Shown here: positions 10,961 to 20,045 of the stretch, one piece after another | How positions within the stretch are numbered: the first letter of the stretch is position 1 | How the letters are laid out: every line of letters starts with the position of its first letter | NCBI GenBank assembly: GCA_964496765.1 | Contig: CAZCAP010000007.1 | Span: forward strand, 17,759-37,808 | Length of the DNA stretch: 20,050 nt | From: an uncultured archaeon | GTDB taxonomy: Archaea > Iainarchaeota > Iainarchaeia > Iainarchaeales > CSSED10-239 | Direction: 5' to 3' | The notes under the pieces: model-generated | Told to the model about the DNA's origin: nothing | Databases searched by the model: none | Seen by the model: the letters and a program-made list of their open reading frames with translations, nothing else | Program-made: the position numbers and the translations under genes

Positions 10961-11251
10961 TTATATAGGATAGTGTTTAAAGCCACTTACAGCAAACTGC
11001 TGACCAGAATTAGAGATGCCTCGAACCAGATTTGGACTGGCGGTCTCCAGATTATGAGTCTGACTTTGACAAGCGTAAGCTGTGTGTAGTGTATAGTCTG
11101 TAGAACCACTGAACAAAGCAACCTTCAACAATTGCCTAACCATTTTAGATATATTAATATGCTTAGCTTTCAAATAATCATACGTATGTTTATCTAAATT
11201 TATTTCAATTCTCTTTAATTCTTGCTCAGATTCAATCTTTTTTTCGGTCAA
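10961..11251 (-). CDS. integrase N-terminal fragment int(N), RHH-like, reading through the att repeat
   Basis: 96-aa ORF. RIEINLDKHTYDYLKAKHINISKMVRQLLKVAL has a strand-helix-helix (ribbon-helix-helix) look. The C-terminal QTHNLETASPNLVRGISNSGQQFAVSGFK is the att sequence translated in the same frame as at the right end. Only the last 4 codons (HYPI) are chromosomal. Confidence 0.8.
   Translation of the reverse strand: MTEKKIESEQELKRIEINLDKHTYDYLKAKHINISKMVRQLLKVALFSGSTDYTLHTAYACQSQTHNLETASPNLVRGISNSGQQFAVSGFKHYPI
10974..11062. repeat. left att repeat (partial tRNA-Met 3' copy plus 43-bp flank)
   Basis: Identical at 89/89 positions to 19957..20045 in a base-by-base comparison. Positions 11017..11062 duplicate the tRNA 3' 46 nt. 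The sequence beyond 11062 is not tRNA-like. Confidence 0.95.
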
Positions 11252-12670: not shown

Positions 12671-14245
12671 ATGTGTGGATATATGATTGAAGAAGATAGT
12701 ACTAAATTCTTACTAAGAAGAATGGGTGAGCTTAACAAAGATGGGGCATTAGATAGAAAGTTTGAACAAGAACGATTCGAAAGGGAAGCACTTACAATTA
12801 CTAAAAGAAATGAAAGAGGCTTATCCGATTGGGGAATTGGATATCCATTGGAAGAAGATGGCAGATATTCTATGATAGTCCCTCAATTACAAGATTGGAA
12901 GATGCTACAAGAGAAGTATCTTAAAGACAAGCCACTCCTCTTTGACAATCAACAGATATGGTGGGCTTGGAATCCTAAAGATTGTTGCTGGCAACCTACT
13001 GATGAAACAAGCATATTACTTAATTTTGACCAATCTATTACATTATCTGACCAGCACAACAGCATACAACCTCTTACAAAAAATATAATTTTAGAAGCAC
13101 TTAAACGAGCATCCAGAAAAAATTATGATGAAATAAAACCTATAGAAAAAACATGGGTCGTATTTAAAGATACTATTGTAGATTTGTCTCAAAGTTTAGC
13201 ATTCCCAAATAATCCTAAGTATTTTGCAACTAATGTTATTCCTCAAAATGTTTTAAATTTACAATCCACAGAAACGCCAGTAATAGATAGATTGTTTAGA
13301 GAATGGGTTGGAAATAAATACGTTCCAACACTTTATGAAATTATTGCATATTCAATGTTATCTGATTATCCAATCCATAGACTATTTTGTTTGATTGGCT
13401 CAGGTCGAAATGGAAAATCTACTTTCATTAACTTATTATTAAATTTTATAGGTAATCCAAATAGCACATCTGTTGAATTGGAAACGCTGACAAATAATCC
13501 TTTTACATCCTCAAAGTTATACAAAAAATTAATCTGTCTTGTAGGAGAAACAAACTTTAATTTACTTAGGAATACAGAGATTATTAAAAAATTAACAGGT
13601 CAAGACCCTATCCCTGCTCAATTTAAGCATAAGGGGTTATTTGATTTTAAAAACTTTGCTAAAATAATAATTGCAACAAACTCCTTACCTCAATCCCTTG
13701 ATAAGACTGGTGGATTCTATTCCAGATGGCAAATAATCGATTTTCCAAATCGATTTTCAGAAGTAAAAGATGTTTTAGCTGATATCTCAGAACAAGAATA
13801 TGAAAACTTAGCAAGAAAATGTATTCTTATCCTACAAAAGTTATTAGTAACCAGAAAGTTTACTAATGAAGGAACATTAGAACAGAGAATGCAAATTTAT
13901 GAAGATAAAGCTAATCCTTTACAAAAATTCATTAGAGAATATTATGATTACAATAGTCAAGAATATGTGATTGGATTCGAATTTTATAATCTATTTAGTT
14001 ATTTCTTGAAGAATAATGGAAGTAGGGCATTATCAAGAATAATAGTTACACAAATGCTAAGGGAAGAAGGTATTGAACCAAAAAAAGAGAGAGTAGATTT
14101 TAAAGGGGAAGAAAAGCAATGGGTTGTTTATTGGGGATTGAAATTAAAAAACAAGAATCAAGAGGGATTAAATAAATATATTAACACTACAGAAAATAAT
14201 AAAGAAAAAGTGGGTGATATAAATGCAGGACTTCAAGAATCTTAG
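12671..14245 (+). CDS. SF3 helicase, D5 / P4-primase C-terminal family (replication protein)
   Basis: Walker A in the typical context LFCLIGSGRNGKSTFINLLLNFIG. Walker B-like KKLICLVGE. Motif C-like IIATNSLP. The upstream W-rich region (IWWAWNPKDCCWQPTD) resembles the D5_N linker. No primase catalytic motif was seen. Confidence 0.75.
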   Translation: MCGYMIEEDSTKFLLRRMGELNKDGALDRKFEQERFEREALTITKRNERGLSDWGIGYPLEEDGRYSMIVPQLQDWKMLQEKYLKDKPLLFDNQQIWWAWNPKDCCWQPTDETSILLNFDQSITLSDQHNSIQPLTKNIILEALKRASRKNYDEIKPIEKTWVVFKDTIVDLSQSLAFPNNPKYFATNVIPQNVLNLQSTETPVIDRLFREWVGNKYVPTLYEIIAYSMLSDYPIHRLFCLIGSGRNGKSTFINLLLNFIGNPNSTSVELETLTNNPFTSSKLYKKLICLVGETNFNLLRNTEIIKKLTGQDPIPAQFKHKGLFDFKNFAKIIIATNSLPQSLDKTGGFYSRWQIIDFPNRFSEVKDVLADISEQEYENLARKCILILQKLLVTRKFTNEGTLEQRMQIYEDKANPLQKFIREYYDYNSQEYVIGFEFYNLFSYFLKNNGSRALSRIIVTQMLREEGIEPKKERVDFKGEEKQWVVYWGLKLKNKNQEGLNKYINTTENNKEKVGDINAGLQES

Positions 14246-14573
14246 ATTGTGGCAGTTAGCCAGAGAGTTTGTTAGTGATATATATAAGCTAACAACCACC
14301 TTCCCAAGCCACGAGCTCCACTCTATGACTAACCAGCTCAGAAGAGCAAGTTACAGCATACCCTCAAACATAGCGGAAGGCTCTGGAAAAGGTAGCCAAA
14401 AGGAATTTAAGAGATATTTAAGTATAGTTAGTGGCTCAATAAAAGAGGTAGAATGTTTTTTAATATTAGCAAGGGACTTGAACTACATCAATGAACAACA
14501 ACTGACTGAACTTACCCAAAAGTTAGAAATTATTGGAAAGATGAATAGTAAGTTAACAAATAAATTATACTGA
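14223..14573 (+). CDS. four-helix-bundle protein (23S rRNA intervening-sequence / Avd-like family)
   Basis: FKNLRLWQLAREF...LRRASYSIPSNIAEGSGKGSQKEFKRYLSIVSGSIKEVECFLILARDL matches the remembered family consensus (W..A......IY..T..FP..E...L..Q.RRA..SI..NIAEG.....KE...FL.IA.GS..E). It overlaps the helicase 3' end by 23 nt. Confidence 0.8.
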   Translation: MQDFKNLRLWQLAREFVSDIYKLTTTFPSHELHSMTNQLRRASYSIPSNIAEGSGKGSQKEFKRYLSIVSGSIKEVECFLILARDLNYINEQQLTELTQKLEIIGKMNSKLTNKLY

Positions 14574-15710
14574 ATCTTTAGATTCATTAATCTGTGATTT
14601 TATTTTAGGATAATTGTTAACAAAACTATCTTCTCCGAACCAGTGGCTAACTTTTTCAAATAAATTACAAGCCATTTCATCTAAATTAGAATAGTCTTTA
14701 CAGTCGATACCCTCTATTATATAATTTATATCTATCCCAATTAATTTATTTTGATTAGGTAAAATTATGTTTTCAGGATTAACAAAACCAATTTTAAGAG
14801 ATATTTGCGGATTCCTATTAATCTTTTTATAATAACTTCTATAGGATTTTAAAAAGAAACCTAATGATATATACATTGCATCAGAATCCAATTTATATTT
14901 ATTAGATGGGGTTGTTTGCGGAATTGTTCTTATCAATAATAACTCACCTTTATCTAAAAAAGATATGATGCCATTATCACCCATTCTTTTAAATTTGATT
15001 TTTACTCCAAAATAATCTTTATTATAATCTGACAACTCAAACCCACCATTTATAGATGATGTCATGATTCTAATTATCTCAGAACTCAAAAGAAAATTAT
15101 CCATTTCAAAAGCAGGTTGAATAAGAAAAAAGAAAGAAGGACTTATTCCATTAAATTTTAATATAACATTTTCTAAAATAAATTGTTCTCTTTTTTTCAG
15201 AACTTCTCTTAATTCTAATCTATCTTTATATAGATTATATATTTCTCTTTCAGATAATGGTATATATTTACCTTTTACTTGAGTTGATAAACTTCCTATA
15301 GATGTACCTTCTCGCTTATAATAAATATAATCCTTCAGATGCATATGTGGGGCAAGATTACTTCTTGGGATATCAATAATTAAATAAAATAAATTTTGGT
15401 CATCATCTTTTGAAATTTCATATGTTTCATAAAAAACAGTTCCAGAAATCCCGTTTCTTATCCAATCACTAATTTTTCGTTTATACAAATCTAATTTCGC
15501 TTTATCTATCCCTATTAGTACACCCTTATCAGATACTCCAAAAATAATAGAACCCCCTTTTTCAGAATTTGCAAATCCGGAGACGTATTTCATTATTTTA
15601 GTGTTTGCATCTAAATTTATTAAAAATTGCTCATCTTTATATTCAATATCATCTTGTTCGTCATGCTGTACAATTTGTTTTAAATGTTCAAAATCTTTAA
15701 TATAACTCAT
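14565..15710 (-). CDS. AlbA_2 / Schlafen-core (divergent AAA) domain protein with unknown C-terminal half
   Basis: The N-terminal 140 aa read EQDDIEYKDEQ...IMKYVSGFANSEKGGSIIFGVSDKGVLIGID...YYKREGTS. This fits the AlbA_2 pattern E.K......I.AFAN..GG.I.IGV.D.G...G....R.G..T. The remaining ~230 aa are unrecognised. Confidence 0.7.
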   Translation of the reverse strand: MSYIKDFEHLKQIVQHDEQDDIEYKDEQFLINLDANTKIMKYVSGFANSEKGGSIIFGVSDKGVLIGIDKAKLDLYKRKISDWIRNGISGTVFYETYEISKDDDQNLFYLIIDIPRSNLAPHMHLKDYIYYKREGTSIGSLSTQVKGKYIPLSEREIYNLYKDRLELREVLKKREQFILENVILKFNGISPSFFFLIQPAFEMDNFLLSSEIIRIMTSSINGGFELSDYNKDYFGVKIKFKRMGDNGIISFLDKGELLLIRTIPQTTPSNKYKLDSDAMYISLGFFLKSYRSYYKKINRNPQISLKIGFVNPENIILPNQNKLIGIDINYIIEGIDCKDYSNLDEMACNLFEKVSHWFGEDSFVNNYPKIKSQINESKDSV

Positions 15711-15855
15711 AATATCAACTCATATTATATATATTACGATTAGGTTTAAATACATTGTTTTTGAGTTATAATTAATAATTTATTACATCTCATACAATAA
15801 ATTATCTTCCAGTTTCAATTATTGTTTTCGATAAATTACAGAGTTTATAATTGCG

Positions 15856-17238
15856 TTATAAAAAATTAATTTCTATGAAAATTCTATAATCTTTGATTAA
15901 TGTGTGCGAGGACTTATACACTATAAAACAATTGTAACAATTATTTTTTATAGCATTAATAAGTTTTGATTTATTTTCAAAATTTTTAGCAATATATCCC
16001 AAAAGTTTACCTTCATACAATATTTTGATTGCTGTCGAATCATATTTGTTAGTAGGTTCATATTTTAATATCAAATTACTCTTATCTAAAATTGAATCTA
16101 AATAATTCACGGTTAAATCTCTATATTGAATTCCTTTAATTATAGTTATGTGAGACAATGGTATTCTTTCTGGTGTAATATTATTAATTTTTAATAAAAT
16201 ATATTTAATATTTGATTTAAATTTAATGAATTCATTAAACCAATATTTTTGAAGCACAGATAATTGGTCTGTTTGTGATTTAACTTCTACAAAATATACT
16301 TTATTTTCTTTTTTATTGTATATAAATAAATCAGGCATACCTGCAGTGTGAGTTGCCAAAAAAGTAATGGTTTTATTTGGTAACTTATCAACACATCTTT
16401 TTAATTCATTATCAGAAATAGCTAACGTTGAAAACACATTCTCTAGTGTTTGATTATTGGAAATAACAGAATAAATTGCTAAATATTTATTATTTTTATA
16501 ATATTCAATTGCATAATCTTCTAAATTACATATTTTATTACTGTATTCAACCAGAAATTTACTTCTAAACCATTCTTTGTTTATTCCAACATATTTAATA
16601 GTTATGATTTCAGATTTAATTAATTTTTTATTTTTTTCAAAAGTGTTAAGTATTTCTGCTTCATTTTCAAATTGTATACTAAAATTTAAATCAAAATTAA
16701 TATCTATTTTACCATTATCAAAAGGTAGTTGATTACGTTTTTGTTTAATATTTTCTGTAAATATTAAATTGCCTTTTTTATACTTTTCTTTGATATAATT
16801 TATATCTTTTTCAAGAGTAATTGACTTATCTATAAAATTTTTTCTTTTATTATTTATAACATTCCCAAAATCAGTAATGTACTCAATTTTATCTTCATTA
16901 ATAGGATATTTTTTTACAAATGGTTTAATGGTTATATTTTTTGATTCGTTCTCAATTTTTAGTGATAATTGGTTATTTTGTCTTACTAATACATCTTCTT
17001 GTTCCTGTTGTTGTTTTTGTTTTTCTAATCTGTCTTTTTGCTTTTGCTTTTCAGAGTTTTTATATTTAATAAACTCTTTAATTGATGCAATTAATATTGA
17101 AGGTCCAATAAATATTAACCAAAATAAAACCCAACTGCTGTGGTTTAATCCTACAACTGCACCAATAGTTAACCCAAAGAATAATAATACCAAATATACC
17201 CCGAACATTTCCATATCAATTACCAATTTATTAAACAC
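15856..17238 (-). CDS. membrane-tethered FAN1-like VRR-NUC nuclease fused to a C-terminal HIRAN domain
   Basis: Two N-terminal TM helices are followed by a basic/QK coiled segment. The nuclease motif is HTAGMPDLFIYNKKENKVYFVEVKSQTDQLSVLQKYWFNEF (PD...EVK...Q, VRR-NUC). The C-terminal IKGIQYRD...LILKYEPTNKYDSTAIKILYEGKLLGYIAKN fits HIRAN (L.REP.N.YD..AI.V......GY). Confidence 0.75.
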   Translation of the reverse strand: MFNKLVIDMEMFGVYLVLLFFGLTIGAVVGLNHSSWVLFWLIFIGPSILIASIKEFIKYKNSEKQKQKDRLEKQKQQQEQEDVLVRQNNQLSLKIENESKNITIKPFVKKYPINEDKIEYITDFGNVINNKRKNFIDKSITLEKDINYIKEKYKKGNLIFTENIKQKRNQLPFDNGKIDINFDLNFSIQFENEAEILNTFEKNKKLIKSEIITIKYVGINKEWFRSKFLVEYSNKICNLEDYAIEYYKNNKYLAIYSVISNNQTLENVFSTLAISDNELKRCVDKLPNKTITFLATHTAGMPDLFIYNKKENKVYFVEVKSQTDQLSVLQKYWFNEFIKFKSNIKYILLKINNITPERIPLSHITIIKGIQYRDLTVNYLDSILDKSNLILKYEPTNKYDSTAIKILYEGKLLGYIAKNFENKSKLINAIKNNCYNCFIVYKSSHTLIKDYRIFIEINFL

Positions 17239-19956: not shown

Positions 19957-20045
19957 TGTTTAAAGCCACTTACAGCAAACTGCTGACCAGAATTAGAGAT
20001 GCCTCGAACCAGATTTGGACTGGCGGTCTCCAGATTATGAGTCTG
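19957..20045. repeat. right att repeat, embedded in the intact tRNA-Met gene
   Basis: Identical at 89/89 positions to 10974..11062. It continues at 20046+ into tRNA-like sequence (..AGCGC). Confidence 0.95.

What the first reader, a model, noticed from the sequence alone, without database searches (positions are those of the whole stretch)
14565..17238. AlbA_2/Schlafen-core protein adjacent to the nuclease-HIRAN gene: candidate two-gene exclusion/defence module
The 381-aa gene lies immediately downstream on the same strand, after a 145-bp gap. It has a clear AlbA_2 (Schlafen-core) N-terminal domain and an unassigned ~230-aa C-terminal half. AlbA_2 domains occur in nucleic-acid-sensing or -cleaving proteins and in regulators. 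A putative sensor/binder next to a tethered nuclease, both as non-essential cargo of a mobile element, is a typical layout for an immune or abortive-infection system. I cannot match this pair to any named system from memory.
Basis: inference. Interest (0 to 1): 0.65.

Follow-up and report, generated by a model that had tools for sequence, protein, structure and literature searches.

The report
Archaeal Schlafen nuclease, not a gene pair
The 381-aa gene encodes a Schlafen-type RNA-cutting enzyme joined to an unknown sensor-like domain, a kind of single-gene antiviral protein described in bacteria in 2026; here it sits on a small mobile element of a tiny archaeon, and the membrane-anchored DNA nuclease next to it is a chance neighbour, not a fixed partner.

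Summary
Two same-strand (-) genes lie 145 bp apart. One encodes a 460-aa protein with two TM segments, VRR-NUC and a weak HIRAN match (15856-17238). The other encodes a 381-aa protein with an N-terminal AlbA_2/Schlafen domain and an unassigned C-terminal half (14565-15710). Both are cargo of an 8,983-bp integrated element in a 738-kb archaeal genome.

The two-gene module is not supported.
- Only two homologues of the 381-aa protein exist in 5.8 billion proteins. In both, a polytopic membrane protein lies upstream, not a nuclease.
- Both homologues of the nuclease lie away from any AlbA_2 gene.
- Neither family recurs in 214 other genomes of the phylum.
- DNA similarity to the two related elements covers only 14214-15715, which is the AlbA_2 gene plus the convergent bAvd-like gene.

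The AlbA_2 protein is probably an effector, not just a binder. It keeps the Schlafen catalytic motif E18-x4-E23-x-K25. Its C-terminal half evolves faster than its N-terminal domain. Its distant relatives lie in or beside type I R-M operons, like the published 'Cluster 4' prokaryotic Schlafens.

Most likely it is an autonomous pSlfn sensor-tRNase: a new member of a known kind, untested. The scan has reported similar pSlfn genes on other DNA.

The parts
14565..15710 (-). 381-aa prokaryotic Schlafen (pSlfn) gene, P0001
   Evidence: ORF, translation. PF04326 match at E 9.5e-17. Only two homologues exist, at 60% and 55% identity.
15261..15710 (-). N-terminal AlbA_2/Schlafen nuclease domain (aa 1-150)
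   Evidence: Pfam match over aa 18-137. The AF2 model has block pLDDT of 76-93 up to residue 130, then 63 and 73 for 131-150. Foldseek matches SLFN13, SLFN11, SLFN5, SLFN12 and SLFN14, SAMD9 and DIP2311 at probability ~1.0. The family profile matches the CbCash nuclease domain at E 1.1e-19.
15636..15659 (-). Catalytic motif E18-QDDI-E23-Y-K25, an instance of Ex4(E/D)xK
   Evidence: The profile alignment places E18, E23 and K25 on CbCash E17, D22 and K24. Those residues are required for tRNA cleavage (PMC13462974). Across 27 relatives: E in 26/27, E or D in 27/27, K in 27/27.
15162..15251 (-). Long linker helix (aa 154-183)
   Evidence: DSSP on the AF2 model, pLDDT 81-91.
14568..15155 (-). C-terminal ~195-aa alpha/beta domain of unknown family (aa 186-381), the putative sensor or regulatory domain
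   Evidence: No Pfam, PHROG or PADLOC match. Predicted order is beta-alpha-beta4-alpha (192-296), then beta-beta-alpha-alpha (303-375), at pLDDT 50-87. Identity among the three family members is 43-57%, against 72-84% for the N-terminal domain. There is a weak colinear profile match to the C-terminal halves of the R-M-associated relatives (hhalign P 0.004).
14223..14573 (+). 116-aa four-helix-bundle gene (23S_rRNA_IVP / bAvd-like), convergent with the pSlfn gene; the 3' ends overlap by 9 bp
   Evidence: PF05635 match at E 1.1e-36. It is 79-82% identical in L001 and L002 and keeps the same convergent, overlapping layout there.
14214..15715 (.). 1.5-kb block shared with the two sister elements (pSlfn plus IVP cassette)
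   Evidence: In this part of the element, blastn finds 71% and 70% nucleotide identity to L001 and L002 over exactly this span. The flanks on both sides are unrelated.
15711..15855 (-). 145-bp AT-rich gap between the nuclease gene and the pSlfn gene
   Evidence: Sequence. TATA-like hexamers lie at -40..-35 and -23..-14 from the ATG, but these are not discriminating at ~23% GC. The sister elements have no such gap: the upstream gene abuts or overlaps the pSlfn start.
15856..17238 (-). 460-aa membrane-anchored VRR-NUC plus HIRAN-like nuclease, P0002; a neighbour, not a conserved partner
   Evidence: The PD-(D/E)xK residues D303, E318 and K320 are invariant in the alignment with P0008 and P0009. 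Those homologues lack the TM anchor and lie in other contexts.

Best explanation
P0001 is a prokaryotic Schlafen (pSlfn) protein carried as cargo by a 9-kb integrative element of a small-genome archaeon. Its N-terminal AlbA_2 domain is a metal-dependent RNase module with the intact Ex4ExK active site. A long helix joins it to a fast-evolving ~195-aa alpha/beta domain, which most likely senses a trigger or controls oligomerisation.

By analogy with RorSlfn5 and CbCash, a trigger from an invading virus or competing element would switch on the nuclease. The nuclease would cut tRNAs and stall translation, which excludes the invader (abortive infection or superinfection exclusion). It works as a self-contained one-protein sensor-effector.

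The upstream VRR-NUC/HIRAN membrane nuclease is a separate cargo gene in a variable 'membrane-protein slot' of this element family. It is not a component of the same system.

Shown here: the domain, the motif, the architecture, the lack of conserved pairing with the nuclease, and the cassette boundaries. Inferred: tRNase activity, the trigger, and the defence role.
For: 1. Family and active site. PF04326 scores 62 bits. The family profile hits the CbCash nuclease domain at E 1.1e-19 and SLFN13, SLFN5, SLFN14, SLFN11 and SLFN12. Foldseek matches Schlafen N-domains at probability 1.0. E18, E23 and K25 align with the experimentally essential CbCash E17, D22 and K24. They fit the Ex4(E/D)xK motif of 5,930 pSlfns (PMC13056530) and are conserved in 26-27 of 27 relatives.

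2. Architecture. According to that paper, 97% of pSlfns are fused to putative sensor domains; 17% of these are unannotated and 1.5% are TBP-like. P0001 has a modelled C-terminal alpha/beta domain (whole model pLDDT 77, pTM 0.71). That domain diverges faster than the nuclease domain (43-57% against 72-84% identity).

3. Context of distant relatives with the same length and layout. P0160, P0161 and P0163 lie inside or beside type I R-M operons, together with AbiEii, DUF4917/PDC-S21 and Ymh genes. This matches 'Cluster 4' of Weickert et al.: Schlafen plus an unknown C-terminal domain, associated with R-M.

4. Independence from the nuclease.
Against: - No biochemical or genetic test exists for this protein or for its three-member family.
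- Homology of the C-terminal domain to the R-M-associated group is weak (hhalign P 0.004, probability 8%). An HMM of the C-terminal half alone finds nothing significant.
- No known defence gene is detected in the window by PADLOC for the five element proteins scanned.
- About 30% of pSlfn genes are not defence-associated.
- The gene is conserved in all three sister elements next to the replication module, which could mean a core element function rather than defence.
- An intact motif is necessary for activity but not sufficient.
Confidence: 0.6

Rival explanations
1. The real two-gene unit is the pSlfn gene plus the convergent four-helix-bundle (23S-IVP/bAvd-like) gene. The small protein would act as a regulator, inhibitor (antitoxin-like) or cofactor of the nuclease. 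Alternatively, the overlapping 3' ends provide antisense control.
For: The pair is kept in all 3 known elements, with 3' ends overlapping by 9-14 bp. The nucleotide homology block 14214-15715 covers exactly these two genes, while both flanks are replaced. The replication genes beyond the IVP gene are not detectably similar between elements.
Against: There are only three observations and they are related by descent. Two overlapping genes are unlikely to be separated by recombination anyway. IVP homologues (48-79% identical) occur in 13 other genomes of the phylum that have no P0001-like gene, and their neighbours vary (terminase, integrase, HNH-repeat protein). None of the 7 distant pSlfn relatives has an IVP gene nearby.
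Confidence: 0.18
2. One reading: the VRR-NUC/HIRAN membrane nuclease and the AlbA_2 protein form one two-gene exclusion system. A looser version is a first-line DNA nuclease backed by a Schlafen that senses DNA-cleavage products.
For: The genes are adjacent on the same strand in this element. Sister element L001 also carries a membrane-anchored nuclease: Mrr_cat with an N-terminal anchor 50% identical over 36 aa. Published surveys note that over half of defence-associated Schlafens sit beside R-M systems or other nucleases, and speculate that they sense DNA-cleavage products (PMC13462974).
Against: No co-occurrence appears in any of the 16 other contexts examined: 2 close and 7 distant pSlfn relatives, 2 close nuclease relatives, and 5 VRR_NUC genomes. 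L002, a nearly complete 10-kb sister element, has no recognisable nuclease. In L001 the nuclease is about 3.8 kb (five genes) away and of a different family. Homology ends 5 bp upstream of the pSlfn ATG. The 145-bp gap is absent in the sister elements.
Confidence: 0.07
3. P0001 is not an immune nuclease. It is a nucleic-acid-binding regulator or replication/maintenance accessory protein of the element.
For: The gene is present in all three sister elements, directly beside the replication module. AlbA_2 proteins are routinely annotated as HTH or regulator proteins (names). About 30% of pSlfns lack any defence association.
Against: The catalytic E-E-K triad is intact and conserved. No HTH, HATPase or other DNA-binding domain is found. 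The fast-evolving C-terminal half fits a sensor under an arms race. The adjacent replication proteins differ between elements, so the gene is not tied to one replicon type.
Confidence: 0.13

Closest known systems
pSlfn phage-defence proteins (RorSlfn5 with an Ig-like sensor; EcoSlfn7 with DUF262), Perez Taboada et al., Nat Microbiol 2026 (PMC13056530)
   Same: An AlbA_2/Schlafen nuclease domain with the Ex4(E/D)xK motif, fused in one polypeptide to a variable, faster-evolving domain. A single-gene layout carried among accessory or mobile DNA.
   Different: The C-terminal domain is not Ig-like or DUF262 and has no Pfam match. The host is a small-genome archaeon and the carrier is an SSV-type-integrase element. 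No activity or trigger is known.
CbCash (CRISPR-associated Schlafen-Csx15; PDB 9ylu), Weickert et al., Nat Commun 2026 (PMC13462974)
   Same: It is the best sequence match among solved structures (profile E 1.1e-19 over the nuclease domain). The catalytic E/D/K residues align.
   Different: Cash has a Csx15 cA4-sensing domain and sits in type III CRISPR loci. P0001 has neither, and no CRISPR genes were found among the window ORFs scanned with Pfam.
'Cluster 4' prokaryotic Schlafens (unknown C-terminal domain, R-M-associated), Weickert et al. 2026
   Same: About 400 aa, with an N-terminal Schlafen domain and an uncharacterised C-terminal domain. The distant relatives P0160, P0161 and P0163 found here lie in or beside type I R-M operons. 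There are shared weak C-terminal landmarks: P199, G255 and the terminal 'F..FG' helix.
   Different: No R-M system lies next to P0001. Homology of the C-terminal domain is only suggestive (hhalign P 0.004). I could not check membership against the paper's own tree.
RnlA/LsoA (RNase LS) anti-phage toxins
   Same: An RNase effector combined with TBP-like-fold regulatory domains. The whole-model Foldseek search gives weak hits to RnlA, TBP and AdoMetDC. The C-terminal domain has beta-alpha-beta4-alpha order.
   Different: The nuclease is HEPN in RnlA and Schlafen here. The fold assignment here is tentative, and no RnlB-like antitoxin has been identified.
Classical AlbA_2-HATPase_c_4(-HTH) proteins (e.g. 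DIP2311, PDB 3lmm; second copy in this genome at G000:C8)
   Same: The same N-terminal AlbA_2 domain.
   Different: P0001 lacks the HATPase_c_4 and HTH parts entirely. The C8 copy shows the classical sequence.

Membership tests
Prokaryotic Schlafen (pSlfn) family | Schlafen/AlbA_2 (PF04326) domain above the curated threshold | tested here: met
   62.1 bits against a cut-off of 25.3. Foldseek matches SLFN N-domains at probability 1.0.
Prokaryotic Schlafen (pSlfn) family | Catalytic Ex4(E/D)xK motif | tested here: met
   E18-x4-E23-x-K25. It aligns with CbCash E17, D22 and K24 and is conserved in relatives.
Prokaryotic Schlafen (pSlfn) family | Fusion to an additional (sensor) domain of more than 40 aa | tested here: met
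   About 230 aa lie beyond the Pfam domain. They are modelled as a linker helix plus an alpha/beta domain.
Prokaryotic Schlafen (pSlfn) family | Location within about 10 kb of known defence genes | tested here: inconclusive
   PADLOC finds no credible hit among the five element proteins scanned. The neighbouring nuclease is defence-like but unnamed. Three of 7 distant relatives lie in type I R-M islands.
Prokaryotic Schlafen (pSlfn) family | Trigger-activated tRNA cleavage and protection against viruses | not testable with these tools
   Needs biochemistry and genetics.
Weickert 'Cluster 4' (Schlafen plus unknown C-terminal domain, R-M-associated) | Homologous C-terminal domain | tested here: inconclusive
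   hhalign of the C-terminal halves gives 117 colinear columns, P 0.004, probability 8%. P199 is shared in 11/15 and G255 in 13/15 sequences. An HMM of the C-terminal half alone is not significant.
Weickert 'Cluster 4' (Schlafen plus unknown C-terminal domain, R-M-associated) | Adjacent restriction-modification genes | tested here: not met
   No R-M genes in the window.
pSlfn fused to a TBP-like domain (1.5% class of Perez Taboada et al.) | C-terminal domain with a TBP-like fold | tested here: inconclusive
   Secondary-structure order beta-alpha-beta4-alpha over 192-296. Only weak whole-model hits to TBP, RnlA and AdoMetDC (probability 0.6-0.8). No domain-only search was possible.
   0 of 16 other contexts. 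Neither family is found elsewhere in 214 genomes of the phylum.
AlbA_2-HATPase_c_4-HTH regulators | C-terminal HATPase_c_4 and/or HTH domain | tested here: not met
   No such Pfam match at E <= 0.1.
Schlafen-APAZ/short pAgo systems | Associated Argonaute gene or APAZ domain | tested here: not met
   Only a 15.5-bit, 38-residue match to the Schlafen part of a PADLOC pAgo model. No pAgo in the window.

The most novel reading that the evidence does not exclude
The 1.5-kb pSlfn plus four-helix-bundle (bAvd/23S-IVP-like) block is a portable two-gene immune or addiction cassette of DPANN mobile elements. In this reading the small helical protein gates the Schlafen tRNase. That would be a Schlafen regulatory partner not described so far, and it would also give a first function to the widespread IVP family.
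Probability: 0.15. Interest if true: 0.6.

Novelty: new member of a known kind. Interest (0 to 1): 0.3.

Why it matters
Prokaryotic Schlafens were shown to be antiviral tRNases only in 2026, and only in bacteria. This locus is an archaeal example, carried by an SSV-type integrative element of a reduced-genome (DPANN-like) archaeon. Its C-terminal domain exists in only three sequences among billions. It adds one uncharacterised putative sensor to the catalogue, and it suggests that such elements carry defence or exclusion cargo in these hosts.

The main practical result is negative. The proposed nuclease-plus-sensor pair should not be pursued as a system. If any partner is tested, it should be the convergent four-helix-bundle gene.

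Tried and rejected
Searches for more family members:
- The search for related loci with the three-member alignment found no relative in genome contigs, viral contigs or metagenome contigs.
- A back-translated FANSEKGGSII pattern found nothing in the same three collections.
- The family stays at three members.

Structure:
- The first AF2 run, with 3 sequences, was useless (pLDDT 32).
- The second run, with 15 sequences, was usable.
The whole-model Foldseek results are dominated by the N-terminal domain.

Other dead ends:
- An HMM of the C-terminal half, run against the 149 other proteins listed by the full-library search (own cluster excluded), was not significant.
- The G044 hit from the phylum search was a spurious match inside a tRNA-synthetase fragment.
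- PADLOC hits to pAgo and PDC-M03B were rejected as short and sub-threshold.
- A literature search on the defence role of IVP/four-helix-bundle proteins gave nothing useful.
- The promoter reading of the 145-bp gap was abandoned as non-discriminating at ~23% GC.
Full report
**Observation**

The window has two same-strand (-) ORFs. One is 15856-17238 (460 aa, P0002) and the other is 14565-15710 (381 aa, P0001). The gap between them, 15711-15855, is 145 bp.

- P0001 matches Pfam SLFN_AlbA_2 over residues 18-137 (E 9.5e-17, 62.1 bits). Nothing matches the remaining ~230 aa.
- P0002 has hydrophobic segments within residues 4-58.
- P0002 matches VRR_NUC over 271-342 (E 4.8e-10).
- P0002 has a sub-threshold HIRAN match over 369-419 (20.3 bits against a 24.7 cut-off).
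- Its PD-(D/E)xK residues D303, E318 and K320 are invariant in the alignment with its two homologues.

Both genes lie in an 8,983-bp element bounded by perfect 89-bp direct repeats at 10974-11062 and 19957-20045. The element also carries:
- an SSV-type integrase fragment;
- a wHTH gene;
- a 370-aa single-pass membrane protein;
- a DUF5906 SF3 helicase;
- a 116-aa 23S_rRNA_IVP/bAvd-like four-helix-bundle gene.

The genome is 738 kb in 26 contigs. It is archaeal, since ribosomal protein S28e is present.

**Is the pair a module?**

P0001 is extremely rare. The word-index search of 5.8 billion proteins found only two homologues, P0005 (60% identity) and P0006 (55%). A full HMMER search of 1.84 billion representatives found only the query's own cluster below E 1e-30. 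Scans of genome, viral and metagenome contigs found nothing more. No full-length homologue exists in 214 other genomes of the phylum.

The two homologues lie on contigs L001 and L002, which are sister elements. In both:
- the gene directly upstream of the AlbA_2 gene encodes a 391- or 379-aa polytopic membrane protein, which abuts or overlaps the AlbA_2 start;
- that gene is preceded by a 243-aa membrane protein;
- neither protein has a nuclease domain.

In the other direction, the nuclease has only two homologues, P0008 and P0009. Both lack the TM anchor.
- P0008 sits beside a PLD-SNF2 helicase and an Eco57I-type methyltransferase.
- P0009 sits beside small ORFs.
- Neither has an AlbA_2 neighbour.

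The nuclease family is absent from the rest of the phylum. Five other genomes of the phylum carry a VRR_NUC domain. Where those genomes also have an AlbA_2 gene, it lies on a different contig.

At the nucleotide level, the window resembles L001 and L002 in this part of the element only over 14214-15715 (71% and 70% identity over 1.5 kb). That span is exactly the IVP gene plus the AlbA_2 gene, and it ends 5 bp upstream of the AlbA_2 ATG. The nuclease gene, the 145-bp gap and the helicase side have no counterpart in the sister elements.

The sample is small but consistent in every direction.

One point remains in favour of a looser link. L001 carries a different membrane-anchored nuclease (Mrr_cat, 498 aa) about 3.8 kb from its AlbA_2 gene. 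Its N-terminal anchor is 50% identical to that of P0002 over 36 aa. L002 is a nearly complete 10-kb element and has no recognisable nuclease.

**What the AlbA_2 protein is**

A profile of P0001 and its relatives was searched against solved structures.
- The best hit is the nuclease domain of CbCash (PDB 9ylu, E 1.1e-19).
- Next come SLFN13, SLFN5, SLFN14, SLFN11 and SLFN12.
- The alignment places P0001 E18, E23 and K25 on CbCash E17, D22 and K24.

Weickert et al. (PMC13462974) show that E17Q/D22N and K24A abolish cA4-triggered tRNA cleavage and toxicity. Perez Taboada et al. (PMC13056530) define the same Ex4(E/D)xK motif across 5,930 prokaryotic Schlafens. They also show phage defence by RorSlfn5 and EcoSlfn7. 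In my 27-sequence alignment these positions are E in 26/27, E or D in 27/27, and K in 27/27. P0001 is therefore more probably a nuclease effector than a passive binder.

*Structure.* An AF2 model built on 15 sequences has pLDDT 77 and pTM 0.71. It shows:
- the AlbA_2 domain (about residues 1-150);
- a 30-residue helix (154-183);
- a C-terminal alpha/beta domain ordered beta-alpha-beta4-alpha (192-296), then beta-beta-alpha-alpha (303-375).

Foldseek hits for the whole model are dominated by Schlafen N-domains, SAMD9 and DIP2311 at probability ~1.0. TBP, RnlA and AdoMetDC appear only weakly, at probability 0.6-0.8. The beta-alpha-beta4-alpha order is that of the TBP-like fold as I recall it, and a TBP-like class of pSlfn fusions exists (1.5%). 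This assignment remains tentative, because I could not search the C-terminal domain alone.

Within the three-member family the N-terminal domain is 72-84% identical and the C-terminal domain only 43-57%. That is the pattern expected of a conserved effector joined to a diversifying sensor.

**Distant relatives and their contexts**

A profile that included distant hits of similar length recovered 29 proteins. A subset of about 400 aa shares C-terminal landmarks with P0001: P199, G255 and a terminal 'F..FG' helix.

The profile-profile match of the C-terminal halves alone is weak (117 colinear columns, P 0.004, probability 8%). An HMM of the C-terminal half alone is not significant.

I examined seven contexts of these relatives.
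- P0160 lies between hsdS and hsdR, together with a DUF6088-AbiEii pair.
- P0163 lies directly after hsdR, next to a Ymh-type gene.
- P0161 lies after hsdS and a DUF4917 gene that matches PADLOC PDC-S21.
- P0115, P0162, P0166 and P0178 are in uninformative contexts.
- None of the seven has a VRR-NUC, HIRAN or IVP neighbour.

**Mechanism proposed**

P0001 acts as a one-protein sensor-effector. The C-terminal domain detects a cue from an invading virus or rival element, or else controls oligomerisation. The Schlafen domain then cleaves tRNA and arrests translation, which benefits the resident element through exclusion. The family, motif, architecture and contexts are shown here. The substrate, trigger and phenotype are inferred from RorSlfn5 and CbCash.

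**Rival explanations**

1. *A pSlfn-IVP two-gene cassette.* The pair is convergent, with 3' ends overlapping by 9-14 bp, and it is retained as a sharply bounded block in all three elements. Against this, IVP homologues occur in 13 other genomes of the phylum without any P0001-like gene, and their neighbours vary (terminase, integrase and others). The three observations are also related by descent.

3. *A non-immune regulator or maintenance protein.* This is disfavoured by the intact active site and the absence of any HTH or HATPase domain. It is not excluded, because the gene is present in all three elements beside the replication genes.

**Novelty and verdict**

This is a new member of a recently established kind, prokaryotic Schlafen defence nucleases. 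It has an orphan C-terminal domain and sits in a new setting: an SSV-type integrative element of a reduced archaeal genome. The two-gene module idea is not supported.

Earlier notes of this scan describe comparable pSlfn genes beside R-M systems or on islets in other genomes, and they reached similar verdicts. I did not test those notes. They agree with this reading but do not count as independent support.

Noticed in passing
L001:4740-6236 (+) compared with window 17065-17229 (-): Sister element L001 carries a 498-aa membrane-anchored Mrr_cat nuclease. Its N-terminal TM anchor is 50% identical over 36 aa to the anchor of the VRR-NUC/HIRAN protein. The same anchor therefore carries different nuclease heads, suggesting a modular family of membrane-tethered nucleases on these elements.
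   Followed up: partly
window 14223-14573 (+); loci L034-L042: The 23S-IVP/bAvd-like four-helix-bundle gene has 48-79% identical homologues in 13 other genomes of the phylum. They are usually convergent with a variable gene, and twice lie directly after a large-terminase gene. The family looks like a promiscuous small gene of DPANN viruses and elements, of unknown function.
   Followed up: partly
L022:932-8497: The closest TM-less homologue of the VRR-NUC/HIRAN protein lies upstream of a 1,061-aa PLD-SNF2 helicase and a 1,080-aa Eco57I/MmeI-type methyltransferase, on the same strand. This is a defence-island-like context for the nuclease family.
   Followed up: no
L026:5165-8426 and L027:871-4132: In two contigs the distant pSlfn relative P0160 is embedded in a type I R-M operon. 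A 278-aa gene lies upstream, its stop overlapping the pSlfn start, and a 378-aa gene lies downstream. Neither has a Pfam or PADLOC match. This may be an unrecognised three-gene unit.
   Followed up: no
G000:C8:1-1128 (locus L003): The same genome has a second AlbA_2 gene, cut by the contig end. Its sequence is that of the classical long AlbA_2 'regulator' type and is unrelated to P0001 beyond the N-terminal domain.
   Followed up: no
window 12671-14245 (+) compared with L001:12015-13601: The replication proteins next to the shared cassette are not detectably similar between elements. The window has a DUF5906 SF3 helicase, and L001 and L002 have a 528-aa protein with no Pfam match. The element family is therefore strongly mosaic.
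   Followed up: no
window 17208-17238 (-): The listed GTG start of the nuclease ORF is followed by in-frame ATG codons at residues 9 and 11, just before the first hydrophobic segment. The true start may be one of these.
   Followed up: no
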